From: Prorocentrum cordatum
Lineage: Eukaryota
Length of the DNA stretch: 64,000 bases
Direction: 5' to 3'
Assembly (NCBI GenBank): GCA_963575745.1
Contig: CAUYUJ010000174.1
Coordinates: forward strand, 1-64,000
Both the position numbers and the translations under genes were made by a program. Positions 15,261 through 37,555 of this stretch are shown here, one piece after another. The number at the start of each line of letters is the position of its first letter. Within the stretch, counting starts at the first letter, position 1. The notes beneath the pieces are model-generated. The model saw only the letters and a program-made list of their open reading frames with translations. It was not told where the DNA came from and did not search any database.

Positions 15261-17986
15261 AGGCATCCTCCCCCTTCGCCTTTTTCCTCCTTCTCAGCCT
15301 CCTCCCCTTCCTCCCCCCCGCGTTCCCCGAAACCTTTCCAAACCGACTCGGGAAACACATGGTCCGATAGATTGGCCAAGCTCTATCTAGCCCAGCTATC
15401 AGACACATAGGCGCTTCCACAAGGGCAGGGGGCGGCGGTGATTCGCCGTAGGCATCTTGGATAAAACGATCCGAGACGAAAAAACCGGTTCGGGGCAGGT
15501 GGTCTGGAGCTCTGGAGACTCCGTGCTGGAAAATCAAACCAGCGGAGACCTGAGGACAGAGACAAGGACAGAGAGGCAGACAGGTGGACAGATAGAGAGA
15601 GGTGGAGGGGCGCAGGCATGCCACGCCGCCGCGGCGAATCCCGCGGAGGAGGCAAGCAGAGGGCCGCCGCTGCCGTGCAGAGGAGGAGAAGGAGGAGGCC
15701 CTGACGCGACGGCGCTGGCAGGCCCACGTTACGGCCCTGGCAGCGCAGAAGAAGGAAGATGAGGACAGGGGGGCAGGAGGAAAATAAGAGAGAGGAGAAA
15801 AGAGAAGAACGCAGAGGAGAAGGAAGAGGAGGAGGACGACGAGGGAGGATGAGGAGAACTTGACGCGACTGCTCCTGCAGGTCTACGTTAATGCTCTTGC
15901 AGCGCAGAAGGAGGAAGAGGAGGACACGAAACAGGAGGAACAGGATAATAAGGAAACAAAAAGAAAGAGGAGGAAGACGAGGATGACGAGGAGGGATGAG
16001 GAGGAAGGGAGGAAAGGGGGGACAGGGACATGGTGCCGGGGGGGAAGAGAGGCCCTGAGATTTGACGCTGCGAGAATTGCAACAGCGCAAAAAAAACACG
16101 ACCGGAGCGGAGCCCTGGACCCTGCTTTCTGCTGCGTTTTTCTGGCCAGATCGATCTGTCGGGCGAAAACACTTTTTTCGTCAGCGGCGAGGCGGCGAAC
16201 TCCGCTCCAGCGAGAAGCTAGATAGGGACACTAAATAGCGAAGTAGCCGGCGAGCAAAGAGGGAAAGGGGGACGGCCGAGGGGAAGAAGGGACGCTCAGA
16301 CGCCGAAGAGTTCGACGACGAGCAGCCGGGGGGGCAGCAGCAGCCAGGCGTGCAGCCGGGCGAAAACACCCATAGCGAACAGAAATGCCACGCCAGGATC
16401 TGGGGGGGGGGGTCGTGCCGCGCCCAGCCCAGAGAAGCTCCCCCGCCCAACCCGCCAGAGGAGGGCTCCAGCCAAACAGCGGTCCCGCCGCAGCCCGCAG
16501 GAGGGAAAACAATAGGAGCACGATGATGATGATGATGATGATGATGGATGATGATGATGTGATGATGATGCTGATGATGATGATGATGATGATGTGATGA
16601 TGATGATGAAGAGGAGGGAGGAGGAGGAGGAGGAGGAGGAGAGTGAGGAGGAGGAGGAGGATAAGAAAAGAGGAGGAGAGAGGAGAAAGGAGGAGGATGG
16701 AGGAGGAGGCGGAGGAGGAGGAGGAGGAGGAGGAGGCGGAGGAGGAGGAGGAGGAGGAGGAGGAGGAGGGGAGGAGGAGGAGGAGGTAAGGGAGGAGGAG
16801 GAGGAGGGAGGAGAGGAGGAGGAGACGGAGAACCCCTCGCCCAACCCGCAGAGGGGGGCTCCAGCCAACAGCCGGTCCCAGCCGCCGCCCACTGCGTTCG
16901 CCCAAGAGGAGGAGGGGGACAACAGGACCAGGATGAGGAGGAGAAGGAAGATGGGAGAAGAGGAAGTCGAGGACGAGGAGGGGAGGCGGAGGAGGAGGAG
17001 TAGGAGTAGGAGGTAGGAGAGGAGGAGAGGAGGAGGAGGAGGAGGGAGGAGGAGGAGGAGGTAGGAGGAGGAGGAGAGGAGGAGGAGGAGGAGGAGGAGG
17101 GAGGAGGAGCAGGAGGAGGAGAGGAGGAGGAGGAGGAGGAGGAGGAGGAGGAGGAGGACGACGAGGACGAGACGAGGAGGAGGAGAAGGAGGAGCGAGGA
17201 GGAGGAGGGAGGAGGATGAGGAAGGAGGAGGAGGAGGAGGAGGAGGAGGAGGAGGAGGCAGGAGAGGAGGAGAGGAGAAGGAGGGAGGAGGAGGAGAGGA
17301 GGCGGAGAAGGAGGAGGAGAGGTGAAGACGCAGGAGGAGGGAGGGGGGAAGTGAGGAGGACGAGGCGAGGGAACCCCGAGGGACCGAGGAGGAGGAGGAG
17401 GAGGAGGAGGAGTAGGAGGAGGAGGAGGAGGAGGAGGAGGAGGAGGAGGAGGAGGAGGAGGAGGAGAGGGAGAAAGCCAGGAGGAGGAAGAGGGCCGAGG
17501 ACGAGGCCGAGGAGGAGGAGGAGGAGGAGGAGGAGGAGGAGCAGCAGGAGAAGGATGAGGAGGAGGAAGGGGCGAGGACGAGGGCGAGGAGGCCCAGCGC
17601 AATCGCGCCCACGCCGTGAGCGGGCGCCTCGCCGTCCCCTCGGTGTGCATCCGAGGTGTGCGCCTGGCAGGGAAGCCGCTGGCCCCGCAGCGCGGGCACG
17701 GTGGCGGGTTGGGCCGCCGGGCCCTACGGATGCATACCGCTCTCCTGCGCGGCGGTGCGCGATGTGCGGGGCCCTCGGAAGCGGCACTCCCCGTGCTCTG
17801 CCTCCTCCCACCTGCTCCTCCTGCTCCTCCTCCTCCTCCTCCTCCCTCCTCCTCCCCCTCCTCCTCCTCCTCCTCCTCCTCCTCCCTCCTCCTCCTCCTC
17901 CACCTCCTCCTCCTCCTCCTCCTCCTCCTCCTCCCCCCTCCTCTTCCTCCTCCTCCTCCTCCTCTTTCTCCTCCTCCTCCTCCTTC

Positions 17987-18161
17987 TGCAAAACCCCGAG
18001 GAGGGTTCTGCGCGGGAGCCTGGCAACAATGATAACGATTGGTCACCTTTATACTCCCGAACGGCAAAGCAGGTCTATGTAGCTTCGACCGTTAAACACT
18101 TGAGCCAAAGGCAGCAGGGTTACTATTCCTCCCCTGTCACACGCACGCTTGCATGTTAACA
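17987..18161 (-). repeat. 3' LTR (175 bp)
   Basis: tgcaaaaccccgag...gcatgttaaca, matching 28556-28730 except at two positions. Confidence 0.95.
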
Positions 18162-18169
18162 CCCCCCTC
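18162..18169 (-). promoter_or_regulatory. Polypurine tract
   Basis: Minus strand reads GAGGGGGG immediately before the TGTTAAC start of the 3' LTR. Confidence 0.85.
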
Positions 18170-18568
18170 GGACGCTAGTCCGCATTGGCTGACGGGGAGG
18201 TGCCTATAAACGCAAAGACAGGTTAAATCAAGCAACAGGCTGCATGGACATCGTTATAATACCGAATTCGAAATATCTCATAACAACGTTCACGAGCACC
18301 ACGTCTCTCAGACATGCAACGTGAGCTCAAGTAAACATTCAATCAGTTACGAAATTAAATGTAGCATCCAAAGTTCACACGGCAGGCTAGCATTTATATG
18401 GTTTTGATTGCTTTCGCTTTTTATGCGCCAATACCTGCGGTAACTATAAAAGATGCACATGCAAATAGATTCAGCTCAATAGTCTACTGCAACGCTGTTG
18501 TTAAGCCTGGTTGAGAGGGGAGATGAGAGAGAGCGTAAAAGAAAAGCATGCCGGTCGCCTGTCACCGT

Positions 18569-21019
18569 TTACGAGCGGCGCGGGCGCCTCACTGACGGAG
18601 CACGCGCGCCTCTGGACTTCGGTAAACCACGGTGCCCCACGCTGGCCGCCGTATAGGACGACACCCTGTTAAGGGCCTGCGTCGGGCTGTAATAGTCGGT
18701 GTCCAGGTACGCGTTAATGCGCTCCTCGTCGTCCAGCCAGCACCCCTCGTCAAAGCTCTTGGTGGACCCGTCAACAATGTTGTGGTAAGTGCCGATGGCC
18801 CTCCAGTAACTGGCGTGGGGAGCCTTCAGCAGAGGTTTACCACCTGGATTGTTGCGGAGGTGCTCTTCGACCGCAACTCCGGTAAACGGGTTCACAGTCC
18901 AGGCCGGGTCGGTAAGCCAGTTGGGGAAGTCGTCGCACGGCAACCATCCAAACCAACAGAGCTTCTCGCGGTGGTCACTTTTACGCTCGGTGATGTGATC
19001 GGCAGGCCAGTTGTCACGGTAAAGTGCCCTCATGGACCCCTGATCGTTAAGAGCGACGTCTAGGATGGTCTGGTGCCAGTAAACCGGAGGCTTGTTGATG
19101 CTGCCCTTTAACTCCTCGGCGCTCCTGACCTCGAGATCCTCGATGAAGTAGTTGCGGTAATACACCTGGAGCCCGTTCATGTAACGGCAATAGAGCTTGG
19201 CAAGGTCGTGCGTCGCAAACCTGATCACGGTAACCCCAGTTGAGATGTAACCGCGCGGTCCGTAAGTGTCTTCCACCAGGTGCTTAACGGAGACCACGGC
19301 GGGGTTGCCGTGGGGCAGCATCCCGGCCCACGTTAGCAGAAGGCCGTTAAGCTGCTTCTCGTTCATTTCTGGTGCCTTGTTGACGTAGACCTGTGTATCT
19401 GGGCAGCTGTGAACGTCGAACCACACTGGGTGGAGATCGTTAACGTGGATCGGCGGCACGTACTCGTCGTCGAACAGGGATTGTACGTGCCCGACCGCGT
19501 CAACCCACTCGTCGTGCTTGGCCAGCTCCTTCTCCGTCAACTGAGATCTCCAGCTGCACGGGCCCTTCAACACTGAGTAACCGAGGAAGCCGTAAGCGTG
19601 CTGCCCGTAAATGTCGACGAACACCTCATCGTAGTCGTTAAGCTCCCGCCCCGCGTTGCCCTGAATAGACCGACCACCTGGAGTCGTTAACCCCTCTTTT
19701 GCCACATGTCCGACGAAGTTGCCTTCGAACCTGCGCCAGTTGTCGCGCGTCTTCATCGTTAACGCGACTACTTCCCTGGGGTCGGGCTCCACCTTGTAGT
19801 TGACGTCGTGGTCCTCGCTCCTGTCGTTCACCATGGGCATGCGGCCGTTGACATGGTACAGTGGGCGGTACATGCCCCTGGCAACGTTCCGCGAGTACGC
19901 CGCAAGCTGCTCGTCTGTACGGTTAACAGCTTGAGGCTGCGGTGGAGGAACGCGCTGGGTCGATAACTTCTTGGGCACCGGAGGCGGGGGATTCATGCCG
20001 CTATCACTGCTCGATGCACCTGACTCGCCAAGGCCTGGAGGAGGCGGCTTGGGCGCCCTCACGTTCACCACCGGGGCAGGACCTTTTGGTACTTCGTCAC
20101 GTTGACTGCCCTGTGCGCGATCTTCATCCATCTTCATTCCCAGCTGCAGTAACTCTTCCAGTTCCCGTTTACGCTCATGCATGGCCTTGGGTGCTTTCTT
20201 GTAAACAGGTTGAGGTGACGTTGACTGCGGGATCTTATTCGGCGACACGGATCGACCGAACCCTCCGGTCTTGGGCGTGGCGCCGGTAAAGCCCTGAGCC
20301 GGGGGTGCACCCGATGCCGCGGCAGCTCGGGCTAGAGGCTTGCTGGCCTCGGCCGCCGCGTTGACTGCAGTGGGAGGCGCCTTGGCGGCCACTGCCGTTG
20401 GGGGCTGCTCGGGTAACGGCGGAGGAACCTGCGGGATGTTGGTAACCGGGGAGTTGATCGGGTCATGCAAGAACCTCTGTAATCCTTCGAGCCTCTCTGT
20501 TACTGCCACCAACAGGCGCAGTGCCGCATCACGTTTACCCTCGAAGTCCTGCAGGGGCGTGTTCTCGGTAAGGCGCTTGGCGGTGTTCAGGAGGTAACCA
20601 ATGTTGTCGTTGATGCGCCTATACTTGGTTGCATTCTCCTCCGTGTTAACTCCCGAGTCACGATTCTGAATGTTCAGGTCCGTAATCGTCGCCATCAGAG
20701 CGTTAATCTCCGCCTGCGCCCTTTGGAGATTCTCGTTGACGTCGTCACTGTCCTGGATCAGCGCCTCGTTCTGCCGCGTTAATTCCTCGATCCTCTTCGC
20801 CATGTCATCCGCGGCCCTTTGCACCTCGTCAACGTGTTTGTCGTAGGCTCCGTGGAAGTTGATCGCCATGTTAGTGAGGGTTACGGTAAACGCGTGAGCA
20901 ACGTGCACCATGTCGTCAACACGGCGGTTGAGGTTCTCACGCGTAACCGGTCCATCCCCAGCCGGGCTCTGGTCGACCATGGAGCCGTTAATGGTGAGGT
21001 TGACCTGAGGAGCCGCCAT
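18569..21019 (-). CDS. Retrotransposon ORF3 of unknown function: coiled coil, Pro/Ala linker and RRM-like C-terminal region
   Basis: Uninterrupted ORF (track 18569-21136; likely start MAAPQVNL at 21019). The N-terminus is heptad-rich. It contains RNP2-like QVYVNKAP, RNP1-like STGVTVIRF and AKLYCRYMNG. Confidence 0.8.
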   Translation of the reverse strand: MAAPQVNLTINGSMVDQSPAGDGPVTRENLNRRVDDMVHVAHAFTVTLTNMAINFHGAYDKHVDEVQRAADDMAKRIEELTRQNEALIQDSDDVNENLQRAQAEINALMATITDLNIQNRDSGVNTEENATKYRRINDNIGYLLNTAKRLTENTPLQDFEGKRDAALRLLVAVTERLEGLQRFLHDPINSPVTNIPQVPPPLPEQPPTAVAAKAPPTAVNAAAEASKPLARAAAASGAPPAQGFTGATPKTGGFGRSVSPNKIPQSTSPQPVYKKAPKAMHERKRELEELLQLGMKMDEDRAQGSQRDEVPKGPAPVVNVRAPKPPPPGLGESGASSSDSGMNPPPPVPKKLSTQRVPPPQPQAVNRTDEQLAAYSRNVARGMYRPLYHVNGRMPMVNDRSEDHDVNYKVEPDPREVVALTMKTRDNWRRFEGNFVGHVAKEGLTTPGGRSIQGNAGRELNDYDEVFVDIYGQHAYGFLGYSVLKGPCSWRSQLTEKELAKHDEWVDAVGHVQSLFDDEYVPPIHVNDLHPVWFDVHSCPDTQVYVNKAPEMNEKQLNGLLLTWAGMLPHGNPAVVSVKHLVEDTYGPRGYISTGVTVIRFATHDLAKLYCRYMNGLQVYYRNYFIEDLEVRSAEELKGSINKPPVYWHQTILDVALNDQGSMRALYRDNWPADHITERKSDHREKLCWFGWLPCDDFPNWLTDPAWTVNPFTGVAVEEHLRNNPGGKPLLKAPHASYWRAIGTYHNIVDGSTKSFDEGCWLDDEERINAYLDTDYYSPTQALNRVSSYTAASVGHRGLPKSRGARAPSVRRPRRS

Positions 21020-21107
21020 GCCTTCGTTCACGCCCAAGAGTAAGAGGTAATGGGTGGAGAAGGCCTTTAATAGCTGCAGTTTGCTTGACAGAAATGAGCT
21101 GCGAACA

Positions 21108-23198
21108 TCAACATTCGGTAGCTGGCGCAAGCTCATGCCTACCTGTTAATGCACATTGATTCGTGTTTCGTAGATGTGTGCTCATGCTTTCACGACTGAC
21201 ATACTTGGTCAACGCATCCGCTGCATTCTCATGTGTCCCTACTTTCACAATACGAATCACTCCCTCCTTAACTTTCTGCTGTAACCACAATTGACACACC
21301 TCGATATGTCTTACTTTCCCCAAGCCTCGTCTGCTCGCAATGGCAATCGCAGCCGTGGCGTCGCTCTTCACTGTAATCTCAACTTCCAAGTTAAAGTCTC
21401 TTAATACTGCCTGAAGTCCTAAACCCACTGATCCTCCTTTCACAAGTCCATAATACTCTGCTTCACCTGACGATAATGCGATGACACTCTGAGTCGTGCT
21501 CCAAGATTTTATGAGATGTTTACCCCACATTACTACTCCTCCACTCGTAGACTTCCTCGTTCGCTTACATCCTGCGTAATCCGTGTCGGTCCAAATAGTT
21601 AATTCTTGGGGCTGCTCCTGATATTGATACACATAGCTGCTTCTGCTGTGGTACTTCAAATACTTTCCTAACTTGACTAAACCCTTCCAAGAACTCATCG
21701 TTGGCTTTGACATGGTCCTAGCGAGTTCCTTCACATAATACTGTATGTCAGACCTGTCCTGAGCTAAGTAGTTTGCTCTGGCCGTCAACGCTTGATATAT
21801 TTTAGTCATGTTGGGCGAAAGTTCTACCTCATCTCCCTCTTCAACTGGAATTCGCTCACCTGGCACTTCAGTCCTCACTTTTACTCCTTCTAGCTCAAGC
21901 TCTTTCACAATTATCTCTGCATGCCTTTGATCTGCCTCATACCTCAATCCTTCCTTCGTCCATTCCACAATCCTGTTCAGAATTCTGATCGCCTTCATGT
22001 CCTCCTTCCCTGGTCCAAGTCGTCCTCTCACCTTCACTTCAAACTCCTCCTTAATTTTATTTTCAAACCAGTCGAGATCATGATCACCTCCTAACAGCGT
22101 GAAATCATCTCCATGAACTGTTAACCATAACGCTCGACTCTCATGCTTGAACACGCATGGTGACGCAATTCCGCTCTTGAACCCAGCCTCGTTAGCAAAG
22201 TCCATGTAACAGTCTTCCCAGTTGCTCGCAGCGTCTCTGGTTCCGTACATTGATTTTAACAGTTTTCCGCACATGCCTGGTTCATAGTCTTCGTCTGGTA
22301 ACCTGATAAATATGTCTTTCTTTGCTGGAGCGTAAAAGTAAGTTCGTTTGATGTCAACGAATGCTAACTTTAATCCTTTCTCACGCTCACCGTTCGTGAA
22401 TCCAACTCCCTCGGTAACTGCCATTGAGAAAAGCAGTTTTTGTGCCTCCAGTGGAGGTGTAGCTGCGAATATGTTCTTTTCTTTGGAATTGTATTTAACC
22501 TGCTGGGCTACCAGCCTTGATCTGTGGTCTGGGCTTAACTCATCTCCTTTGTTGATGTCTATCCATCTGGTTCCGATGGGCGCCTTCCCCGTGATTTGCC
22601 AACGCACTTCCTCCCTCACTTTCTCGTAAACTTTGTGTTTTCTGAATTGTTCCATTTCTTCTTGACGTGCTTTTACAGTCAATTTAGGGTCGAGCTCGTT
22701 TCCTGTGACATCATCCCAAGCTTGAGTAATCTCTCCATTTTCTCTGTGGACAACGTTGATCGTGTTCATTGGGAGAGGGTTAACTGTACCAGTTCTTTCG
22801 CACGCCGCACATGTGCTAGGCGCCTTGAGCCATCCCTCATGCTCACATGCACAGCACTTCCACCTGTGTGGAGCAATTTCGCCGACAGCTTCATACGTAA
22901 AGGTGGTGGAAGTGTTAACTGGTCCCTTCTTAAACATTCTCCTTCTCTCTTTCCCTGTGATCTCGTTCACAGGCCTGTCCTCGATAATCTTCCCGGTGTC
23001 TATGTCAGCGGTAATTCTCCTAATGCATGAACTCCATTGCGGTCCACTTGGCCCCGGCAGCATTAATCTTTGTGTTCCATAATCTCTCCTCGTCCACGTT
23101 AACTGGTGCTTGTGCTTCCTATCTTCGTTCTCATGTTCACATGCCCAGTTAATCTCGCTTATCTGCGCCTCACTTTGTTGTTCTTCTTCGACTTCCAT
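21108..23198 (-). CDS. pol: copia reverse transcriptase + RNase H
   Basis: RT motifs TRWIDINKG, RSRLVAQ, DIKRTYF, KSMYGTRDA and VHGDDF. RNase H motifs TDTDYAGC, RKSTSGG, SSGEAEYY, SDATAA and ADALTK. Confidence 0.95.
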   Translation of the reverse strand: MEVEEEQQSEAQISEINWACEHENEDRKHKHQLTWTRRDYGTQRLMLPGPSGPQWSSCIRRITADIDTGKIIEDRPVNEITGKERRRMFKKGPVNTSTTFTYEAVGEIAPHRWKCCACEHEGWLKAPSTCAACERTGTVNPLPMNTINVVHRENGEITQAWDDVTGNELDPKLTVKARQEEMEQFRKHKVYEKVREEVRWQITGKAPIGTRWIDINKGDELSPDHRSRLVAQQVKYNSKEKNIFAATPPLEAQKLLFSMAVTEGVGFTNGEREKGLKLAFVDIKRTYFYAPAKKDIFIRLPDEDYEPGMCGKLLKSMYGTRDAASNWEDCYMDFANEAGFKSGIASPCVFKHESRALWLTVHGDDFTLLGGDHDLDWFENKIKEEFEVKVRGRLGPGKEDMKAIRILNRIVEWTKEGLRYEADQRHAEIIVKELELEGVKVRTEVPGERIPVEEGDEVELSPNMTKIYQALTARANYLAQDRSDIQYYVKELARTMSKPTMSSWKGLVKLGKYLKYHSRSSYVYQYQEQPQELTIWTDTDYAGCKRTRKSTSGGVVMWGKHLIKSWSTTQSVIALSSGEAEYYGLVKGGSVGLGLQAVLRDFNLEVEITVKSDATAAIAIASRRGLGKVRHIEVCQLWLQQKVKEGVIRIVKVGTHENAADALTKYVSRESMSTHLRNTNQCALTGRHELAPATEC

Positions 23199-23217
23199 GT
23201 TCGCTACTTCTTCTTCT

Positions 23218-25000
23218 TTATGTACCCCCTTGACGACCGTCGATCTTCATTTGCTTTACAAGTCCTTTCAGTATCGCTCGACACAGTTTATCTGGGTAGA
23301 CCTCTGATCTGTGCGTCCTACCGCCACCAGTTAACTCCATGTGTCGATGTTGCCCTTTACATTTCCAGCTTAACTCATGGCCAATGGCTGAACTGTTTGT
23401 CATGAACTTGGTCGGTTTCTTAATGAACATCTCTTCGCCTTTGACCATCTGCTTTAAGTCGTAACAGCACAAATCTCCATCGTATACTTTGACATCCTTG
23501 TTTCTGAGTAACCGTTGCACCGTTGAAGTGCCCCAGCTGGTTGCTCCTGCAGGGTGCTCAAACAGAAAGTATAACCCATTTCGCCGTTGAATTTCGCAAA
23601 GCTCCATCGCAAACGTCAAATGCTTGATCCCGTAATCCAACATCTGTTTCACACGGTCGGCACCTAATCTTTTAAAGTTGAACGTTTGGAGTCTGCTGAA
23701 GGCTGCGCACATGGGGCTCACCACCAGTAACAGGGCTGCTTTGGATTTGACAATCTTTTTCGCTTTCGCACGCATGGCTGGCACATTAAAATCCCATGGG
23801 TTACCATGTTGGTCTCGCGTCGTTAAGTCCATTGCTAATCCCGGTATCAATCCCATTTTTTCTGCCATTCCAGTAACTCTCACCGGCGAATACGCATCGG
23901 TCACGTGCGCCTGAGTCTCGTGTTGGCATGCCCCATGGAGCCTGGTGGCTCTCCTTACTTCGTTTAATTGACGTACGATGTTCAATTCCCCACTTGTCAA
24001 CCATTCAACCAGTTCAGAGTCAAATCCCATCATGTTGAGCCCCAATCTGATGTCGTTTACTTCTGACATTTCTTCATCTTGTTCCATATCAAGTTGACGA
24101 TGCTGAGTTGCCTGTTGATCTTCTTCGTCGTGGTCGCCCTCTGCTTTTCGTTTAATGGGTTTACTCGGGGAATCTTTCATTTCTTCATCTTCCACTTCGA
24201 ACTCGGTCCATCCGGTCCAGTAACCGTTAAAGGGGTTTCCCATAGCCCATGTTTGATCGTCTCCATCTTCACCATACCAAGCACCTTCGTGCTCATGTAT
24301 CTTGCCGCCGTCAATCATGATCGCGTGGGTATATCTTTTAGGCTTAAGTTTGTCCCAATCTACTGGGCACCCACCATTGGTGGGGAAGGCTAACTCTTTC
24401 CTCGGTCGTCGGTGCTGGCATATAACTTTGTTTCCCTTTATTACCCACTCGTCCTTAGGTTCCTCAACTTTGGCGCTCGGCGGAGGTGGTACATTGATCC
24501 TCAGTTTCTTCGCTTGACTTTCTGATTCTTGTTCGCGATTTTCTGGTGCACGACTTTTACTCTCAAGCCTTAACTGCGCAGACGCTAGCCTTGCCTGGAT
24601 GCTCGGGCTCTCTTGTTTCTTTAACCATTCAATAACTCGAGCCCTGCAATCAGCGTTATGCGGCTTGTGTTCTTTGTCTCCTCTCACGAGGCATTTACAT
24701 CCGTAACACCCTGGTGTCGGTCCCATTTTCAAGTATTCGTGCTTTTTAACTGCAATCCCTCGTGCAATGAGCGGCTTCGTCTCAGGCGCAGTTAAATCTT
24801 GCTCTGGTAGATCCATGGGTACCATGATCCTAGACTGTAATTCCATTCCCGCTGTGCTCGGGTCAGGCTGCCAAGGTAACCCCTTTATTTCGGTGATCTC
24901 GGCAATATTCCATCTTTCCGCATCACTTCCTTTTCTTTTAAACTCGTGCGCCTTGATTGCACCATTGGGCGCCCCAATAATTAGCTCTTCACTTTTCTCG
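23218..25000 (-). CDS. pol middle segment: integrase C-terminus, CxxC-H-C motif, acidic linker and C5 cytosine methyltransferase-like domain (~23250-23907)
   Basis: TPGCYGC...HNADC, then VTDAYSPVRV (motif I-like), LVVSPMC (motif IV-like, PxC instead of PC), FLFEHP (motif VI-like), DLCCYDL...KKPT (motif VIII-like) and YPDKLCRAI (motif X-like). Small indels separate it from the neighbouring ORFs. Confidence 0.75.
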
Positions 25001-25970
25001 TGCCTAGAAACACTCCACTTTCCCATCTCATTGCGAGCTTCTCGCGGCCTTTGTGCGCAGGTGTCTTCAAATACATGACACACTCACCAAACTCAGGAAT
25101 TTGCTTGTTAAACTTTCGCCCCCTGCACCTCTCATGGGCCGTCTTCCCATCCGTGTCTATTGTGAACTTGTTAATCAAAGAGGACGCGCAGCTCACCAGC
25201 CAAGGTATTATCTGATGGCTTTCACCAAACTCAGTCTTATAATTGGCATCTAAGGCGCTCTTTAACGTTCTGACCTGACCCTGCACTGTCCTAACGGCTC
25301 TCTCAATTTCGCCATTGGCCTTTGAGTCGCCGACTGGGCTAACTTCAACTCCCATGTCAAGATCACACGAAGCTTTAATCCTATTAGCCAGTGCTGTGAT
25401 TGCCGCTTCCCCATCACTTTTGAGTATCACCTTCTTGTATCCGGTAAAACTTATCATGTCACATCCTACTTTTACCGAGTACGAGTCCACTCCCTTTTTC
25501 ATCAACACTCTGCTCCAAGTTAATTTGGTCTCTCTGCAATGCATGGCCAAAATTGGATTGCCATTGCTGGTGCTTTCACCTTCATCCTTTCTTCCTTTAA
25601 GCCACATGTAGTCCATTGAAATCACTGGCACGTTTCCGTTCCCCTCTCTTTTGCGTCTACGGTGATTGCGTCTGCGCGCTTTCCCTCTAACGCAATGTGG
25701 GCGCCAGCTTCGGTAAGGCAAATGCGTCGTGTTATGCGCTTCAACTTCCTCCTTTGAGGGCCTCATGTCACAGTAAACTTTCTTTGGTAACTCCGCTTCA
25801 TCACCCGCAAATACATCTTCCACATCACTTAACTCACTATCGTTGCCCCCACTTTCACTTCCTTCGTCTCCTTCGGTATTAAAGACGTTTAAGTTTTCGC
25901 TTGGTCTTACGGGTGATGGGGGGCTTAGTAGAACAGATCCGCCTCCAGGGTTCCCGGCCGCGGAAAACCC
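24981..25970 (-). CDS. pol: integrase
   Basis: HNTTHLPYRSWRPHC (HHCC with one Cys replaced) and a DDE triad in ISMDY, KSDGE and NGEIER. The frame is open back to the slippery site at 25964-25970. Confidence 0.9.
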   Translation of the reverse strand, partial: GFSAAGNPGGGSVLLSPPSPVRPSENLNVFNTEGDEGSESGGNDSELSDVEDVFAGDEAELPKKVYCDMRPSKEEVEAHNTTHLPYRSWRPHCVRGKARRRNHRRRKREGNGNVPVISMDYMWLKGRKDEGESTSNGNPILAMHCRETKLTWSRVLMKKGVDSYSVKVGCDMISFTGYKKVILKSDGEAAITALANRIKASCDLDMGVEVSPVGDSKANGEIERAVRTVQGQVRTLKSALDANYKTEFGESHQIIPWLVSCASSLINKFTIDTDGKTAHERCRGRKFNKQIPEFGECVMYLKTPAHKGREKLAMRWESGVFLGTRKVKS

Positions 25971-28534
25971 TCAGTAACGTTCACTTCGCTCCTGGGATTG
26001 ACGGCCTCCGCTGGTCCCTTCGGTACTGTGATGTTGAACTGGAATGTGCCATTCTTCTCATGAATGGTTGTGAACTTACCGGTCGCCTTGTTCATGATGT
26101 GGCTCAGGGATCTCCCGTTAGAACCCTTGTCGAACACCACTCTATTTCCAGCGTTTACCATCTCTCTGACAGATCCTAGGACTTTGTTGACCTCTGCTAC
26201 CTGAATCGGCATACTGACGGCGCTCCCATGCTCATTTTTACCTGTGATCACTCGTTGACCATAATTCTTTATCGTGGTTCCATTTGCTGCACTGTAGTGT
26301 CGTCCCTGCTTTGACGCGCCCGTATGCTTAATAGGGAAATGAGTGCCAACTTTGGGGGGCCCCACTGTGTTGTATGCGCCGGAGTCCACGGTAACCACGA
26401 TCGTCTCATGCGTTGCACTTGGCGGTGGCACCGCGTTAATCTCTGGATCACAGCCCCGCATCTCAATTAGCCCAATTTCCTTGCACTTCTCCAGCCAACT
26501 TTTTTCCTGCCTCACGCTTTTACTTATTCTCTGGTCCCATTGACTAGTATGATTACAGTCCCCGTTACGCTGGTGTTCCTGATAAATTCTTTTCAAATTC
26601 ACCGCGTTGTTACGTGCCGTTTTCTTTCTGGCGTAATAGGGCAGGTCCCATTTCTCGTTAACCTCCTCGATTGCAGGCTGGTCTAGCGGCACGTTCATTG
26701 CTTCCTTCATCTCAACGCTGAGAACATGCTGTGGTTGGCCGAACGAGGTGGTTTGTTCAATCTCAGTGTTCACTGCAGGTTTCTCTTGCTCAACTTCGTT
26801 GGCGGTCTTCTTAGGGCCCGGACAGTTAATGGCGATATGCCCTTTTCCGCCACACTTGTAACACTCACGCTCGCTGTGCGGGGTGAACTTCCCTTGGCCT
26901 CCGTAGCTTCCTCCCCACGAGCTACTTCCTTTACCTCCCTGTTTGCCTCCGATCTTACCTTTCACATAGGATCCGTAAGTGGCTCGGTAACCTTTGCCTT
27001 TTCCGCCCTTGCCACCTTTACCTCCTTTGGTGAACTGTTTAGGTCTTGTGCAGTTTCTGGCTAAATGGCCCATGCCTCCACAATTGTAACACCTGGGGCC
27101 CGCTCCTTTACCTTTGCCTTTGTTTACGGCGTCAATTTCTTCATATTCTCCACCGTCGCTCTCATTGGCCCAGGACCCGTAATTCCACGATCCGTCTTCT
27201 GACCACCAGTTTCCATCTTCGTCAACCCATCCTGTTTGGTCCCAAACATTTTCGGACCCTTGACTCATCTCGTTGATATTCCCAATGTCCATTGCATCCT
27301 TATTTTTCGTATCTGAGTCAAGTTTCTTTTTACGCGCCCAGTCTTCGCACTTTGAGTACAATTTCTGAAATGAGTCAATGTTAAGCGCGTCAGGCGTTCG
27401 CCAACATGCCTGCTGCCATTCGTCGAACCAGTCATTCGCGTGCACCATTATGGCCCTGAGCGCGGTGACTTTAAAAGGAAGAGGCAGCGAGTAATCTTTA
27501 CCATATTTCTCAAGATTTTCTGCCAATGCGCTCCATTCCTCAAGTCGGGTAACGGTGTCAGTGATCTTCTTGGGCGGCTCAGGATTCATGGCATGCGTCA
27601 TTTTTGATGATAAGGTCGCTCCGGTTACCGCCGAGTACCATTTGTAAACCTTTTGCCAAGCCATGATTCCATCTCCATCCATCAGTCCCTTTAATTTTCC
27701 TCTGGCCTCCGCACCTTCAAGTTTCTCGTTCAGAATGTACCATAAGTCTTCCTCCATCTGAGTTTTGTCTCCCTCGGTGAACTCATATTCGCCTTTGTTG
27801 TCGTCCTCGGCCTGTTTGGCTTGATTCGCCTTCAGGTACTCACTTGCAGTTAATCGGCCGTTCATTATGCGTATGATGTCGTCATCGTCCTCCTCTGGTA
27901 CGACTCCGTCAAGCGTCTCCAGCTTCTTGTTTAGCATTTTCAGTGCCGGTCGGTAACTCGGCTTCACTTGGGCTAGTGCGTTCAAGAACTTGTCGTTCCA
28001 GTCTCTGAACTTTGCTCTTTCCCCACTGAAGTTCTTTAGCGCCTGTAATGCTTTATATTCGCTTATCGGTTTACTGCTCCCGTGCTTGCTTCCGCTTCCT
28101 CCTTTAATCGCTTCCGAGATCTGACCAAACCTTTCGATCAACTTTTCTTGTACTTCACTGTTGGTCTCCAACTCGGTGACTCTTTCCACCAATCTGCGAG
28201 CATCCCTTTCGAGTGCAGCGTTTCTCTTTGTGATCGCTAACAGCATGCTGTTGGTCTTGTGGGCACTCTGTAACATTTGGAACGCTTCGGCATTCGATAC
28301 CTCCCTTCGATCCTGTGTTACTCGCTCGTTAATGAACGTTGCGAGTCCGAAATGGTTCGCGAGTAGCGCCGTCTGAACGTAACTGAAGTCTCCGCTCATG
28401 TATGCTTGCTCGCACAGATCGTTGAAGCGATTCGGGTCCATGTTGACCCATGCATCTCTGTCTGCCGGCACATTGAGATTAACTGGCGGGTCGCCCTGCC
28501 CAGGTCTGGCCGCAGCTGCCGCTGCCGCTGCCAT
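25925..28534 (-). CDS. Gag-protease polyprotein (869 aa)
   Basis: Two CCHC knuckles (CYNCGGMGHLARNC and CYKCGGKGHIAINC) and the aspartic protease motif VTVDSGA. The ATG lies just downstream of the PBS. Confidence 0.93.
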   Translation of the reverse strand: MAAAAAAAARPGQGDPPVNLNVPADRDAWVNMDPNRFNDLCEQAYMSGDFSYVQTALLANHFGLATFINERVTQDRREVSNAEAFQMLQSAHKTNSMLLAITKRNAALERDARRLVERVTELETNSEVQEKLIERFGQISEAIKGGSGSKHGSSKPISEYKALQALKNFSGERAKFRDWNDKFLNALAQVKPSYRPALKMLNKKLETLDGVVPEEDDDDIIRIMNGRLTASEYLKANQAKQAEDDNKGEYEFTEGDKTQMEEDLWYILNEKLEGAEARGKLKGLMDGDGIMAWQKVYKWYSAVTGATLSSKMTHAMNPEPPKKITDTVTRLEEWSALAENLEKYGKDYSLPLPFKVTALRAIMVHANDWFDEWQQACWRTPDALNIDSFQKLYSKCEDWARKKKLDSDTKNKDAMDIGNINEMSQGSENVWDQTGWVDEDGNWWSEDGSWNYGSWANESDGGEYEEIDAVNKGKGKGAGPRCYNCGGMGHLARNCTRPKQFTKGGKGGKGGKGKGYRATYGSYVKGKIGGKQGGKGSSSWGGSYGGQGKFTPHSERECYKCGGKGHIAINCPGPKKTANEVEQEKPAVNTEIEQTTSFGQPQHVLSVEMKEAMNVPLDQPAIEEVNEKWDLPYYARKKTARNNAVNLKRIYQEHQRNGDCNHTSQWDQRISKSVRQEKSWLEKCKEIGLIEMRGCDPEINAVPPPSATHETIVVTVDSGAYNTVGPPKVGTHFPIKHTGASKQGRHYSAANGTTIKNYGQRVITGKNEHGSAVSMPIQVAEVNKVLGSVREMVNAGNRVVFDKGSNGRSLSHIMNKATGKFTTIHEKNGTFQFNITVPKGPAEAVNPRSEVNVTEGFPRPGTLEADLFY

Positions 28535-28537
28535 GGC

Positions 28538-28555
28538 AACCGCGCTCCGCTACCA
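28538..28555 (-). promoter_or_regulatory. Primer binding site, probably tRNA-iMet
   Basis: TGGTAGCGGAGCGCGGTT directly follows the CA of the 5' LTR. TGGTAGC is the complement of an initiator-Met-type 3' end. Confidence 0.8.
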
Positions 28556-28730
28556 TGCAAAACCCCGAGGAGGGTTCTGCACGGGAGCCTGGCAACAATG
28601 ATAACGATAGGTCACCTTTATACTCCCGAACGGCAAAGCAGGTCTATGTAGCTTCGACCGTTAAACACTTGAGCCAAAGGCAGCAGGGTTACTATTCCTC
28701 CCCTGTCACACGCACGCTTGCATGTTAACA
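28556..28730 (-). repeat. 5' LTR (175 bp)
   Basis: Direct repeat of 17987-18161. Confidence 0.95.
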
Positions 28731-29097
28731 CCTCCTCCTCCTCCTCCTCCTCCTCCTCCTCCTCCTCCTCCTCCTCCTCCTCCTCCTCCTCCCATCTCCT
28801 CCTCCTCCTCCTCTTCCTACTCGATGCGTTCGTCTTTAAGCAGAGCCCTCCTCGAGTTACTTGTGGTAGAAGTACCTCCTTCCTGCTTCACCCCCAGACA
28901 TGTTGGTAGGGCGGGCTGGGCGCTTCTCCTGAGACTTATTCACCGCTTATGATCCTGTGAATGTTACAACAGCTTCACGGACCGAGATCGGGTCATTCTC
29001 AAAAATGTGGCTCTCGCCTTAGCGCCGCGCACGCTCGTATTAGAAAATGAACCAAACGCGACCCCGATCAGGGTTAAGCTTGCCATTCCATGGGCGC

Positions 29098-29285
29098 AGT
29101 GCTTGGCATTGCTTAGCGATGCTTGAGATTGCTTGGCGTTGCCAGGCATTGCTTGGCACTGCTTGGCGTTGCTTGGCACTGCTTGGCATTGCTTGACATT
29201 GCTTGAAATTGCTTTGCATTGCTTGGCATTGCCTGGCATTGCTTCGCATTGCTTGGCATGCTTTCCATTTCTTGGCATTGCTAAG
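29098..29285. repeat. Short-period tandem repeat (GCATTGCTTG-like)
   Basis: Repeated ttggcattgc and ttggcactgc units. Confidence 0.85.
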
Positions 29286-35800: not shown

Positions 35801-37555
35801 CCTTGGAGCTGGGTTGGCATATGTCCAATCTTTTCCAGCAGGCCAATAAAATCGCAGACAATCTCTGCCTGTTCGTTACTCAACATACTGAAATGCCTAG
35901 GGTGGAACCCGTCCCAGGTAGTGGCAGTGGCATGGGGAAAACTTTTCGCAACCTGTCGTAATCTCTTGGGGCTGATGGGGCCCAGGGCAATTCGATCTTC
36001 TCTGTCAGGAACGAGCTGAGGTGGGGTATCCTGGGAAACCTGCCATATTTTTGCCAGACGATCTGCTTCAGCCTGCAATATATGCTGGGGCCTGCCAGAA
36101 TACTGCGACTTAAATGGAACTGACGAGGGCCTCCAGGCCTCCAAACGCTTGGTCCATCTGTGAGCCCATCCCATTCCTCCCTTCATGTTGTCCTGAACCC
36201 AATCCCTCCATGCCTTCCCGTCTGCAGCGTTCTCTGCCGCCTGCTCCTGATGCAGGAGCTTGGTGACGTGCTCTAGCAGCTCGTCCAGAACCTGGATCGC
36301 CAGCGCCTGGTTCAGGGCACCAGCGCTGAACTCAACGCGCAACAGACCTGCAGCAACTCTAATCTCTTGCAGCCCCTCCTTGAGGGACACGACGGTGGTG
36401 AACAGCTCAGGGCAATCCTCTAAGCTGTCGAGAGCGTCCTGAAACTCAGTGAGATTCCAGTCCTGAACACATCTATGGAAATCTTGGATCCTATTGATGA
36501 GCCATCTCAACGGGCCCGTGTAGGCCACCCATTTGGCCCTACTCCTAGCAGCCTTGGCCTCAGCGAGGACCATAAGAACCTGAGGGGGGGGTGGGCCCTG
36601 GGGTACTTGCTAGGCTTGAGGGGGGTGTTAGTTTTCTTACTGATTGTAGCTTCCAAGTCCTGGGCCAAGCTGAAATACACGTGGTCCAGGAGCACCGACT
36701 GCTGTTGATCGCTGAGCGGCCGTCGAGCATCATCGATCAATAGTGAAGCGTACTCCAATGCAGCAGCTGACTGGTGCCAACTCACTTCTGGCAATTGCGG
36801 GCCCACAGGGATACGTGTGGGTAGCTTCTGGGGCCTATGCAGCGTGGGGATATTAAAGTTATTCCCAACTACAATATCTAGCAGCACAGGTCTGTGAGGG
36901 GAGAGAGGATACGAGGAAAGAGTACGGGGGTTACTGAGCCACGGCGAGAGGCCTTGGCTAGACAGGAAATAATCTAGCGTGGATTTGGTCTTCTTGTTTC
37001 GGTAGGTGGCGGTCGGCGGCGCAAGCAGGGTCATCGTGGACCTGGACAGAAACTCCGCTTGGGCCAACCTAGCGGGGGCTAGGTTAAAATCCCCCGCAAC
37101 CAAAACTGGATGGGTCAAATCATCCTGAAGTTGGCCTATGGCGGCCAGCAGTTTTAAATTGGTCTCGGAGAGACCAGCAGCAGCCTGAAAGTAGGTACAA
37201 CATATGGCGAACTTCGGGGCCCCAGGAAGTTCGAGCAACACCCCCGATAATCGAGCGGGGTCGAAAGCGGCAGAAAAAGTGATTGGCTGGACCCCCAGGT
37301 CCAAGCCATCCCGAATCAAAATCGCAACTCCCGAAACCAACTCATTATTCTCACTCGTGGCTGCAGGCGTGATGTAAGCCAGCCACCCCTGGGCCGAGCA
37401 CCATTGTATCTGACGCACAATGCGATCTCCTTCGGCAGGCTTACGCTCCTGAGCACAGATGATCGTGACTGCACTAGACTGCGGCGAAAGGACAAACTTG
37501 CGCACAGCAGGCCAGCAGGAACCATTGATAGTAGCGGTCTTATAAGTGTTACCCT
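32838..37555 (-). pseudogene. LINE A ORF2, split over several frames
   Basis: APE ~36600-37550, RT 34654-36573, linker and RNase H ~33480-34569, and C-terminal Cys/His region 32838-33300. Confidence 0.85.

What the first reader, a model, noticed from the sequence alone, without database searches (positions are those of the whole stretch)
17987..28730. Young copia element combining a DNMT-like domain, an RRM-like ORF3, an SL-like LTR and a PR/INT frameshift
Seen: LTRs differ at 2 of 175 positions, PBS and PPT are present, and four unusual modules sit in one 10.7 kb element. Established: dinoflagellate (Symbiodiniaceae) retrotransposons with cytosine methyltransferase domains have been described. 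Inference: this combination may define an undescribed lineage that modifies its own cDNA and uses host trans-splicing and an accessory RNA-binding protein. I cannot verify novelty without a search.
Basis: partly seen in the sequence, partly recalled or inferred. Interest (0 to 1): 0.9.

Follow-up and report, generated by a model that had tools for sequence, protein, structure and literature searches.

The report
Dinoflagellate-type copia element with extra modules
This is a recently inserted but broken copy of an abundant jumping gene of dinoflagellate-type algae whose family carries a hidden methyltransferase-like domain, a built-in ribosome slip site, an extra gene, and a piece of the host's universal mRNA leader in its terminal repeats.

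Summary
The element is real and its coordinates are exact: a 10,744-bp Ty1/copia-type LTR retrotransposon on the minus strand, with 175-bp LTRs differing at 2 sites, a PBS and a PPT, inserted in a (CCT)n microsatellite. Three of the four "modules" hold. (1) A ~230-aa domain between integrase and RT folds like a C5 cytosine methyltransferase, but no Pfam model detects it and it lacks the glycine SAM loop. (2) The PR/INT -1 frame change sits on GGGTTTT, and the in-register T-run recurs in all 9 elements that show the -1 relation (of 12 with both domains). (3) The LTR holds 11 nt identical to the 3' end of the dinoflagellate spliced leader, kept in relatives' LTRs and in published SmTCL3. (4) ORF3 is a conserved protein, but "RRM-like" has only sub-threshold support. 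An independent 10.5-kb metagenome contig (L001) has the same three-ORF plan intact. The methyltransferase-like domain, slip site and leader motif are shared by the distant relatives sampled; ORF3 was found only in the close sublineage. My searches found no paper describing these features. Functions remain inferred.

The parts
28556..28730 (-). 5' LTR, 175 bp, TG...CA
   Evidence: 173 of 175 positions identical to the 3' LTR
17987..18161 (-). 3' LTR, 175 bp
28668..28678 (-). TTTGGCTCAAG in the 5' LTR: 11 nt identical to the 3' end of the dinoflagellate spliced leader
   Evidence: only 2 sites in the window, both in LTRs. Leader sequence as printed in PMC5585692. The 10-mer is kept in relatives' LTRs.
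18099..18109 (-). the same motif in the 3' LTR
28540..28555 (-). Primer binding site directly after the 5' LTR
   Evidence: The first 12 nt are identical in 7 of 9 elements with a mapped LTR end, with 1 change in the other 2. That it matches an initiator-tRNA-Met 3' end (A1:U72 type) is my inference; no tRNA gene lies in the window.
25925..28534 (-). ORF1: gag with two CCHC zinc knuckles, plus an aspartic protease (DSG)
   Evidence: translation; zf-CCHC, E 1.6e-11, 2 stretches; 50% identical to L001 ORF1
25964..25970 (-). -1 frameshift site G GGT TTT, in register. The -1 frame opens on its first base, right after a TGA.
   Evidence: An in-register NNT TTT lies at the PR/INT overlap in all 9 elements that show the -1 relation. 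No indel here among the 12 indel rows shown for four runs; 12 more rows were not shown.
25001..25970 (-). Integrase: HHCC finger and DDE core, in the -1 frame, up to the first private break
   Evidence: motifs read from the translation; 67% identical to L001 ORF2; no Pfam rve hit
25000..25001 (-). Private 4-bp deletion inside the integrase C-terminal part; shifts the frame
   Evidence: 4 extra bases here in all covering contigs of X2 (depth 5.62 of 5.62), X3 (9.32 of 9.32) and X4 (3.1 of 3.1), none in X1 (0 of 14.6). L001 reads through in one frame.
23233..23919 (-). C5-methyltransferase-fold domain (residues 50-278 of the 282-aa query)
23219..23220 (-). Private 2-bp deletion between the MTase-fold domain and RT; creates a stop and shifts the frame
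   Evidence: 2 extra bases here in X1 (110.6 of 179.7), X2 (21.4 of 21.4) and X3 (15.9 of 15.9); no cover in X4
21108..23219 (-). Reverse transcriptase and RNase H
   Evidence: RVT_2, 49.6 bits against a cutoff of 31.6; 73% identical to L001
21036..21063 (-). Pyrimidine-rich tract followed by AG, just upstream of the ORF3 start: a possible splice or trans-splice acceptor
   Evidence: a comparable tract ending in CAG precedes the L001 ORF3 ATG. The function is inferred.
18569..21019 (-). ORF3, 816 aa: N-terminal coiled coil, Pro/Ala-rich linker, conserved ~430-aa C-terminal domain
   Evidence: three full-length homologues at 52-55% identity. L001 ORF3 is 29-33% identical over the C-terminal domain; no membrane segment (max hydropathy 1.06).
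19100..19423 (-). Possible RRM inside ORF3
   Evidence: window RRM_MARF1 E 0.18 (12.5 bits, cutoff 27); L001 counterpart RRM_1 E 0.026 (14.8 bits, cutoff 20.7). RRM_1 clusters at 0.80 and 0.78. All are below threshold.
18162..18169 (-). Polypurine tract
   Evidence: purine tracts of the same kind precede the LTR in relatives
17801..17984 (+). (CCT)n microsatellite flanking the 3' LTR
28731..28822 (+). (CCT)n microsatellite flanking the 5' LTR. The element split one array; the 5-bp flanks match at 4 of 5.
   Evidence: L001's 5' flank is the same repeat.

Best explanation
Window 28730 to 17987 (minus strand) is a full-length, recently inserted copy of a high-copy Ty1/copia-type LTR retrotransposon family. 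The host is most likely a dinoflagellate.

Family plan, shown by comparison: LTR, PBS, ORF1 (gag-PR), a -1 shift, ORF2 (INT, linker, C5-methyltransferase-fold domain, RT, RNase H), ORF3, PPT, LTR.

This copy carries two private deletions in ORF2 (4 bp and 2 bp). It cannot make its own integrase-to-RNase H protein. It either moved with proteins supplied by intact relatives or was damaged after insertion.

How it most likely works (all inferred):
(i) Ribosomes usually stop after Gag-PR. A minority slip back one base on the in-register U-run and make the long fusion protein, which sets the Gag:Pol ratio as in retroviruses. My odds that the shift is programmed: about 0.85.
(ii) The MTase-fold domain is made as part of Pol and so sits next to the reverse transcriptase. 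It keeps an invariant Cys after strand 4 and a Glu after strand 5, but has no glycine-rich SAM loop. I put about 0.4 on a pyrimidine-C5-modifying enzyme acting on the new cDNA. The rest goes to another chemistry or a non-catalytic role.
(iii) The 11-nt leader match in the LTR most likely marks where the element's RNA 5' end is made. The AG that ends the motif would be used as a spliced-leader acceptor, so the mature RNA starts with the host leader and the motif becomes part of the terminal repeat used for the first strand transfer. My odds: about 0.35. The alternative is a captured TTTG core promoter.
(iv) ORF3 is an accessory protein of the close sublineage, possibly RNA-binding. It could be expressed from a (trans-)spliced subgenomic RNA that uses the pyrimidine tract and AG before its ATG. 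My odds: about 0.3.

The confidence given (0.8) is for the identity, architecture and defective state of the element; the odds of the four mechanistic steps are those stated above.
For: Anatomy: LTRs, PBS, PPT and ORFs; RVT_2 and zf-CCHC above Pfam cutoffs.

Family and copy state: contigs of four runs lay on the whole element (2009, 945, 1208 and 577 pieces at >=90% likeness, of which 494, 211, 409 and 108 at >=99%). Those contigs carry 4 and 2 extra bases at the two private breaks.

Independent full-length relative L001: three ORFs of 857, 1614 and 885 codons, with LTRs. Identity to the window: 50% gag-PR, 67% INT, 68% MTase-fold, 73% RT-RH, 29-33% ORF3 C-terminal part.

Frameshift: the -1 relation between PR and INT holds in 8 of 11 metagenome loci that hold both domains, plus the window. 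All 9 have NNT TTT in register inside the overlap, and the -1-frame peptide is conserved directly after it.

Leader motif: 14 sense-strand sites of the 10-mer in 122,601 bases of loci; about 0.1 expected by my arithmetic. It lies 30-96 nt inside the LTR and 31-148 nt before the PBS. It follows the RNase H end in 10 of 12 loci that reach that end. L008 keeps almost the whole leader. The SmTCL3 LTR in the supplement of PMC5776459 has the same 11-mer.

ORF3: full-length homologues, and a Py-tract plus AG before its ATG in both the window and L001.
Against: Sequence methods do not support an MTase. No Pfam hit on the window's domain at E<=10. PF00145 matched only 3 of 55 family members, best E 0.047. 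hhalign against four true C5-MTases gave E 0.05, probability 1%, over 24 columns. No PDB sequence hit.

The glycine SAM loop is replaced, and the catalytic dipeptide is P-x-C rather than PC. TM-scores are only 0.30-0.41.

CpG is not depleted in the element: observed/expected 0.94, against 0.74-0.82 in the flanks.

Only 3 of the 9 slip sites are canonical X XXY YYZ heptamers. The 70 nt downstream fold no better than shuffles (z -1.08 to +1.75).

The leader match stops at 11 nt. The next upstream base never continues the leader (0 sense sites of TTTTGGCTCA), and nothing in my data shows trans-splicing.

No full leader lies in the window.

The RRM hits are below cutoff and the ORF3 model is unusable.
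Confidence: 0.8

Rival explanations
1. The MTase-fold domain is not a methyltransferase. It would be a Rossmann-type domain with a different nucleophilic-cysteine chemistry, or a non-catalytic scaffold kept for polyprotein folding, nucleic-acid binding or targeting.
For: No canonical motif I, and P-x-C instead of PC. Sequence-profile tests are not significant. Generic SDR Rossmann folds score only about 2 Z units lower. No CpG depletion.
Against: Every listed Foldseek match is a C5-MTase-family entry. Nine C5-MTase-family entries head the search that does not lean on Foldseek. The Cys and Glu sit after strands 4 and 5, as in C5-MTases. The only hhalign segment is motif IV. Conservation is strong, equal to INT and RT.
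Confidence: 0.45
2. The LTR motif is a captured spliced-leader relict that serves as the LTR's core promoter. The TTTG box would stand in for a TATA box, as proposed for dinoflagellate retrogenes. It would have nothing to do with trans-splicing of the element's own RNA.
For: PMC5585692 (abstract and passages) reports that relicts keep TTT(T/G) and proposes this as a portable promoter, best conserved 50-100 bp upstream of start codons. The LTR motif starts with TTTG in 11 of 14 sense sites. It lies roughly 75-140 nt before the gag ATG (my reading).
Against: All 10 nt are invariant while the rest of the LTR is unalignable, which is more than a 4-nt box needs. In L015 and L016 only 31-36 nt of LTR follow the motif, leaving very little room for R and U5 if transcription starts 20-30 nt downstream.
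Confidence: 0.3
3. The PR/INT frame change is not programmed. It would be decay or homopolymer assembly error, like the other two breaks, and the family really has one gag-pol ORF.
For: It lies in a G3T4 homopolymer run. This copy does have two other frame breaks. No convincing downstream structure.
Against: The same -1 relation and in-register T-run occur in 9 elements that share only about 31-67% integrase identity and come from different contigs. L001 is otherwise intact and still needs the shift. No indel at the site among the rows shown for four runs. The -1 frame opens exactly at the site.
Confidence: 0.05
4. The element is a chimera or misassembly of unrelated pieces (copia, a host methyltransferase gene and a host ORF).
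For: Unusual length and content. No whole genome was available to check.
Against: L001 from an unrelated metagenome has the same order end to end. The 31 loci holding both MTase-fold and RT matches show the same order, and the 11 that also hold INT have it upstream of the MTase-fold domain. Contigs of four runs cover all 30 bins. LTRs, PBS and PPT bracket the whole.
Confidence: 0.02
5. ORF3 is not an RNA-binding accessory protein. It would be a fast-evolving structural or host-interaction protein, for example a coiled-coil oligomer for particle traffic or counter-silencing, and the RRM resemblance would be chance.
For: RRM hits are below the curated cutoffs. Atlas scores are under 0.9. The model is unusable. 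The N-terminal part matches only coiled coils. ORF3 evolves much faster than pol (29-33% against 73%).
Against: Two orthologues at about 30% identity each give an RRM-clan family as their only Pfam hit on the same 100-aa segment. That segment has RNP2- and RNP1-like patterns by eye.
Confidence: 0.5

Closest known systems
SmTCL1-4, heat-activated Ty1-copia-like elements of Symbiodinium microadriaticum (Chen et al., PMC5776459; whole main text and parts of the supplements read)
   Same: Copia order with LTRs and about 10 kb length. The SmTCL3 LTR in supplementary file 2 carries the same 11-mer followed by an A-run. The SmTCL4 genomic sequence (file 10) has GGCTCAAG about 170 nt before a PBS starting with the same 12 nt.
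   Different: The paper describes only RT, INT, RNase H and LTRs. Its main text has no occurrence of 'spliced', 'frameshift' or 'ORF', and 'methyl' occurs only in a reference. I could not compare the sequences themselves, so whether SmTCLs hold the MTase-fold domain, the slip site or ORF3 is open.
SymbioLINE-Dnmt and SymbioDIRS-Dnmt3, and the charophyte DNMT3-bearing retrotransposon (de Mendoza et al., PMC5890265; abstract and sections 6-7 read)
   Same: A retrotransposon of a dinoflagellate-type host that encodes a DNMT-fold domain next to its reverse transcriptase. The same idea of self-methylation of cDNA applies.
   Different: Those are LINE and DIRS elements whose DNMTs are recognised by PF00145 and keep the key residues. 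The paper says Symbiodinium Copia lack a DNMT domain. Here the carrier is copia, the domain is invisible to PF00145 and it lacks motif I.
Ty1 of yeast and other Pseudoviridae (recalled, no call)
   Same: LTR, a PBS that pairs with an initiator tRNA-Met, gag, then PR-INT-RT-RH; frameshifting is used to lower Pol output.
   Different: Ty1 uses a +1 shift between gag and PR, and most copia have one ORF. Here a -1 shift lies between PR and INT, so PR is made with Gag. That layout is recalled from alpharetroviruses (gag-pro, then -1 to pol).
Sireviruses, copia elements with an env-like third ORF (recalled, no call)
   Same: A long extra ORF between pol and the 3' LTR.
   Different: ORF3 here has no membrane segment. 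It is a coiled coil plus a Trp/Cys-rich domain with a possible RRM.
DinoSL relicts of dinoflagellate retrogenes (Slamovits and Keeling 2008 as cited in, and Song et al., PMC5585692)
   Same: A genomic copy of the 3' part of the 22-nt leader upstream of an ORF, starting at TTTG.
   Different: Here the relict is a fixed, invariant part of the LTR of an autonomous retrotransposon lineage, at a similar place in highly diverged LTRs. It is not a decaying tag of a retroposed host mRNA.

Membership tests
Ty1/copia (Pseudoviridae) LTR retrotransposon | Two LTRs ending TG...CA, with PBS and PPT abutting them | tested here: met
Ty1/copia (Pseudoviridae) LTR retrotransposon | Domain order PR-INT-RT-RNase H, with a copia-type RT (Pfam RVT_2 above cutoff) | tested here: met
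   (49.6 bits against 31.6); order; integrase identified by motifs and by homology to rve-bearing relatives, not by Pfam
Ty1/copia (Pseudoviridae) LTR retrotransposon | 5-bp target-site duplication | tested here: inconclusive
   the flanks match at 4 of 5 and lie in a trinucleotide repeat, so the match is uninformative
C5 cytosine methyltransferase (PF00145 / DNMT) | Match to the family profile above the curated cutoff | tested here: not met
   no hit at E<=10 on the window's domain; 3 of 55 family members, best E 0.047; hhalign against Dcm and three phage enzymes E 0.05
C5 cytosine methyltransferase (PF00145 / DNMT) | Motif I glycine-rich SAM loop (FxGxG; motif recalled) | tested here: not met
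   the family consensus has YSPPRV at that place after strand 1
C5 cytosine methyltransferase (PF00145 / DNMT) | Motif IV catalytic Cys after strand 4 and motif VI Glu after strand 5 | tested here: inconclusive
   invariant C120 in SPMC..FS and nearly invariant E170 in EHP sit at those places. hhalign pairs C120 with Dcm's PC cysteine, but at probability 1%. It is P-x-C, not PC.
C5 cytosine methyltransferase (PF00145 / DNMT) | C5-MTase fold | tested here: met
C5 cytosine methyltransferase (PF00145 / DNMT) | SAM-dependent methyl transfer to cytosine C5 | not testable with these tools
   needs an enzyme assay
Published dinoflagellate DNMT retrotransposons (SymbioLINE-Dnmt, SymbioDIRS-Dnmt3) | LINE (endonuclease plus RVT_1) or DIRS (tyrosine recombinase) backbone with a PF00145 domain | tested here: not met
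   the backbone here is copia (RVT_2, DDE-type integrase, LTRs) and PF00145 is absent; definition from PMC5890265
Programmed -1 ribosomal frameshift | Slippery heptamer X XXY YYZ in register inside the ORF overlap | tested here: met
   G GGT TTT in the window. Only WIN, L024 and L026 of the 9 are canonical; all 9 keep NNT TTT.
Programmed -1 ribosomal frameshift | Site and frame relation conserved among diverged relatives | tested here: met
   9 of 12 elements with both PR and INT show it; the other 3 show no PR/INT ORF overlap and 2 of them have further breaks
Programmed -1 ribosomal frameshift | Stimulatory downstream structure | tested here: inconclusive
   minimum-energy folds of the 70 nt downstream are not better than shuffles (z -1.08 to +1.75); pseudoknots were not tested
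DinoSL relict | At least 9 nt identical to the 22-nt leader, upstream of an ORF (criterion of PMC5585692) | tested here: met
   11 nt, about 140 nt before the gag ATG
RRM (RNA recognition motif) | Profile match above cutoff, or a confident beta-alpha-beta-beta-alpha-beta fold | tested here: inconclusive
   12.5 bits (cutoff 27) and 14.8 bits (cutoff 20.7) on two orthologues; model pLDDT 31.5

The most novel reading that the evidence does not exclude
A large dinoflagellate copia clade has built the host's trans-spliced leader into its replication cycle. The LTR-encoded 3' half of the leader ends in the acceptor AG. Any read-through transcript would then be capped with the full leader exactly there, and the leader would become the 5' copy of the terminal repeat used for strand transfer. 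The element would need little or no promoter of its own, and the motif would be renewed from the host at every cycle. The same particles would carry a divergent C5-MTase-fold enzyme that marks the new cDNA. Such leader-primed particles would be natural makers of the leader-tagged retrogenes reported to make up over a fifth of Symbiodinium gene models (PMC5585692).
Probability: 0.2. Interest if true: 0.85.

Novelty: new variant of a known kind. Interest (0 to 1): 0.66.

Why it matters
Dinoflagellate genomes are huge, rich in retrogenes tagged by the spliced leader, and heavily methylated. Which reverse transcriptase makes the retrogenes, and how retrotransposons live with universal trans-splicing and few promoters, are open questions (PMC5585692 and PMC12014239, passages).

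An abundant copia clade that keeps the leader's 3' half at a similar place in otherwise unalignable LTRs gives a concrete, testable link between trans-splicing and retrotransposition.

A C5-MTase-fold domain with thousands of relatives, invisible to Pfam and sitting in Pol, would mean DNMT-like modules in retrotransposons are far commoner than the LINE and DIRS cases published. It would also mean that domain counts based on PF00145 miss them.

The conserved PR/INT slip site is a compact candidate for studying recoding in dinoflagellates. Relatives (SmTCLs) are the heat-activated elements of coral symbionts.

Tried and rejected
- Whole-genome copy census: no genome is held for this window.
- No other copy or solo LTR in the window.
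- Rfam at gathering thresholds: 0 matches in the window.
- tRNA scan: 0 genes, so the primer tRNA could not be checked.
- Full 21-nt leader with up to 3 mismatches: 0 sites in the window.
- Metagenome scan with the ORF3 alignment: 64 pattern matches, none a relative.
- ORF3 homologues: three searches of 5.8 billion proteins returned the same 3 clusters. Shorter and longer length classes were not searched.
- ORF3 C-terminal model: pLDDT 31.5, not used for any fold search.
- PDB sequence searches: nothing relevant for the domain; only coiled-coil noise for ORF3.
- Atlas search gave unnamed clusters for the domain, with the nearest named one PF00145 at 0.83, a lead only.
- Cluster look-up gave no names or taxa.
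- RNA evidence: no RNA holder listed among the runs. Only contigs could be laid, so starts, ends and splice joints of RNA are untested.
- Downstream frameshift stimulator: no support from MFE folds.
- CpG depletion as a footprint of self-methylation: not seen, although 10 of the 24 listed C>T / G>A differences between copies fall in CpG.
- Earlier findings of this scan: nothing relevant.
- 'Tandem' element-LTR-element contigs (L012, L015, L016, L033): rejected as biology, because short-read assemblers circularly permute LTR elements.

Full report
THE OBSERVATION

A direct-repeat search finds one long pair, 17987-18166 and 28556-28735, at 98% identity. Aligned on the minus strand, the repeats are 175-bp LTRs that start TG and end CA and differ at 2 positions.

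- A primer binding site follows the 5' LTR directly, and a purine tract precedes the 3' LTR.
- The element splits a (CCT)n array: 61 units on one side and 31 on the other. The 5-bp flanks agree at 4 of 5, which means little inside a repeat.
- No other copy or solo LTR lies in the window.
- No whole genome is held.

CODING CONTENT OF THIS COPY

Five long stop-to-stop frames tile the minus strand.

1. 28549-25925 holds gag, with two CCHC knuckles, and a DSG protease.
2. 25970-24981 holds an integrase with an HHCC finger and a DDE core.
3. 25083-23218 holds the integrase C-terminal part, a linker and the 'DNMT-like' stretch.
4. 23246-21108 holds RT and RNase H (RVT_2, 49.6 bits against a cutoff of 31.6).
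5. 21145-18569 holds the third ORF, whose ATG is at 21019.

Pol is thus interrupted three times, not once. Pfam sees no DNA_methylase, rve or RRM even at E<=10.

WHICH FRAME BREAKS BELONG TO THE FAMILY

Twelve public runs hold part of the stretch, none on record as RNA. I laid the contigs of four runs on the element at >=90% likeness. They gave 2009, 945, 1208 and 577 pieces covering all 30 bins. Transitions far outnumber transversions (622 against 142 variant places in X1). This is a high-copy family.

- At 23219/23220, other copies carry 2 extra bases: X1 110.6 of 179.7 depth, X2 21.4 of 21.4, X3 15.9 of 15.9.
- At 25000/25001, other copies carry 4 extra bases: X2 5.62 of 5.62, X3 9.32 of 9.32, X4 3.1 of 3.1, X1 0 of 14.6.
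- Each insertion restores a single reading frame.
- No indel is listed at the PR/INT junction among the 12 rows shown. Twelve more rows were not shown.

These two breaks are therefore private lesions of this copy or its subfamily. In X1, part of the depth shares them, so they are probably real variants and not assembly errors. X1 may, however, be the window's own sample.

AN INDEPENDENT INTACT RELATIVE

A scan of metagenome contigs with an alignment of the domain returned 33 loci. L001 is a 10,523-bp contig with LTRs at both ends and exactly three ORFs of 857, 1614 and 885 codons.

Identity to the window is 50% for gag-PR, 67% for INT, 68% for the domain, 73% for RT-RH and 29-33% for the ORF3 C-terminal part. 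ORF2 is in the -1 frame relative to ORF1. L001 also abuts a (GGA)n repeat.

This excludes a chimera. It shows the family plan: gag-PR, a -1 shift, then INT-domain-RT-RH, then ORF3.

THE FRAMESHIFT

In the window, the -1 frame opens exactly on G GGT TTT, straight after a TGA, 46 nt before the gag-PR stop.

- Among the 11 metagenome loci that hold both PR and INT, 8 show the -1 relation.
- The other 3 (L018, L020, L033) have no PR/INT ORF overlap, and L018 and L033 carry other breaks.
- With the window, that makes 9 elements. All 9 have NNT TTT in register inside the overlap: GGT, GAT, GCT, CCT, ACT, CCT, CCT, GGT, GGT.
- The -1-frame peptide is conserved directly after the site.
- Only 3 of the 9 are canonical heptamers.
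- The downstream 70 nt fold no better than shuffles (z -1.08 to +1.75).

I read this as a programmed -1 shift on an A-site U UUU. The mechanism of stimulation is unknown.

THE DNMT-LIKE DOMAIN

An exhaustive HMMER search of 1.84 billion representative proteins found 5947 at E<=1e-3 and 2315 at E<=1e-10. I scanned 16 of them (15 of the longer hits and the best hit): 7 had RVT_2 and 4 had rve, one of them both. The domain lies either between INT and RT, as here, or upstream of INT.

A 55-sequence alignment gives these features:
- an invariant Cys in SPMC..FS;
- a nearly invariant EHP;
- conserved D, WD, Q and Cys/His positions;
- YSPPRV where C5-methyltransferases have their glycine loop.

All of these residues are present in the window copy.

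Structure evidence:
- The AlphaFold model is confident (pLDDT 89.1).
- Foldseek against the PDB lists only C5-methyltransferase-family entries (DNMT1, DNMT3A/B with DNMT3L, DNMT2, MET1 and a prophage enzyme). Best E is 1.4e-4, TM 0.30-0.41, identity 8-15%.
- The Cys follows strand 4 and the Glu follows strand 5, as motifs IV and VI do.

Sequence evidence is weak:
- PF00145 touches 3 of 55 members, best E 0.047.
- Profile comparison with E. coli Dcm and three phage enzymes aligns only motif IV, at E 0.05.

The fold claim holds. Membership in the enzyme family and activity do not follow from it.

CpG is not depleted in the element (0.94 against 0.74-0.82 in the flanks).

THE SPLICED-LEADER MOTIF

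The LTR 11-mer equals the last 11 nt of the 22-nt dinoflagellate leader as printed in PMC5585692. The window has it only in the two LTRs.

- In the 33 loci (122,601 bases) the 10-mer occurs 14 times in sense and 2 times in antisense. Words from the leader's 5' half occur 0-1 times in sense. The word one base longer upstream never occurs in sense.
- The sense sites lie 30-96 nt inside the LTR and 31-148 nt before a conserved PBS.
- Ten of the 12 loci that reach the RNase H end have the motif downstream. L003 does not. L018 has too little sequence there but has the motif before gag.
- Conservation stops exactly at the leader's last base. The flanks are unalignable.
- L008 keeps nearly the whole leader.
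- The supplement of PMC5776459 shows the same 11-mer in the LTR of SmTCL3, a heat-activated copia of Symbiodinium microadriaticum. It also shows the same PBS start in SmTCL4. This ties the clade to dinoflagellates. That paper's main text does not mention it.

Two readings fit, and no RNA data could decide between them:
- The motif's terminal AG is a leader acceptor, so the host leader becomes the 5' repeat.
- The motif is a captured TTTG promoter, as proposed for retrogenes.

ORF3

Three full-length homologues at 52-55% identity exist among 5.8 billion proteins. Two further searches added none. L001 has a diverged counterpart.

- The protein has a coiled-coil N-terminal part, a Pro/Ala-rich linker and a conserved C-terminal domain of about 430 aa. 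It has no membrane segment.
- A 100-aa segment gives RRM-clan families as its only Pfam hits in both orthologues, but below cutoff.
- The structure model failed.
- In the 8 more distant relatives whose 3' LTR start could be placed, only about 200-740 nt lie between pol and the 3' LTR, so they lack ORF3.
- A pyrimidine tract and AG precede the ATG in both the window and L001.

COMPARISON WITH PRINT

De Mendoza et al. place dinoflagellate DNMTs in LINE and DIRS elements and state that Symbiodinium Copia lack them. Chen et al. describe SmTCLs only as INT-RT-RNase H with LTRs.

Four searches and the passages read found none of the following:
- a copia-borne DNMT-fold domain;
- a PR/INT slip site;
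- a leader relict in LTRs.

Supplements other than those of PMC5776459 were not read.

VERDICT

This is a real element and a defective copy. It is a new variant of copia with several family-wide features that appear undescribed. The functions are inferred, not shown.

Noticed in passing
window 34654-38894 (minus strand): A LINE-type element: one ORF with an Exo_endo_phos endonuclease (E 9e-8) and the next with RVT_1 (E 2.7e-8). CpG observed/expected is 0.65, lower than in the copia element. Whether an upstream ORF carries a DNMT, as in SymbioLINE-Dnmt, was not examined.
   Followed up: no
window 16611-17592, 17801-17984, 28731-28822; L001 17-37: The element sits in a (CCT)n array next to a 324-unit (GAG)n array. 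The only other close relative with a readable flank (L001) also abuts (GGA)n. This may be a target preference for this repeat, whose sequence resembles the element's own polypurine tract.
   Followed up: partly
L008 3236-3268: This LTR keeps almost the whole 22-nt leader, not just its last 10-11 nt, with one substitution and a small insertion.
   Followed up: partly
proteins P0152, P0118, P0095, P0075: In another set of long polyproteins, some from contigs of 0.1-1.2 Mb, the same MTase-fold domain lies upstream of the integrase instead of between integrase and RT. The module has therefore moved or been acquired more than once.
   Followed up: no
window 17800-28900 against runs X1-X4: Copies differ mostly by transitions. 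10 of the 24 listed C>T / G>A differences fall in CpG of the window copy. This fits methylation-driven decay of genomic copies, although the young copy itself is not CpG-poor.
   Followed up: partly
L012, L015, L016, L033: These contigs run RNase H, LTR, PBS, gag, as if elements were in tandem. This is most likely circular permutation by short-read assembly of identical LTRs. Real tandem arrays are not excluded.
   Followed up: no
downstream of the leader motif in the LTRs (window, L001, L008, L012, L015, L016, L018, L020, L025, L029, L033): An A-run of the type AAAA followed by G, T or C lies a few to about 70 nt after the motif in the LTRs I looked at (the window has TATAAAG); the same type follows the motif in the SmTCL3 LTR. 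It may be a poly(A) signal or site. I recall a similar motif reported at dinoflagellate poly(A) sites but did not check it.
   Followed up: no
window 29096-29282 and 29318-29491: A 10-bp tandem repeat (18.8 copies) and a 76-bp repeat (2.3 copies) lie just beyond the element.
   Followed up: no
window 22100-22120 region of the RT (translation): The RT active-site box reads HGDD instead of the usual Y/F-x-DD of copia elements (the motif comparison is recalled). It was not checked in relatives.
   Followed up: no
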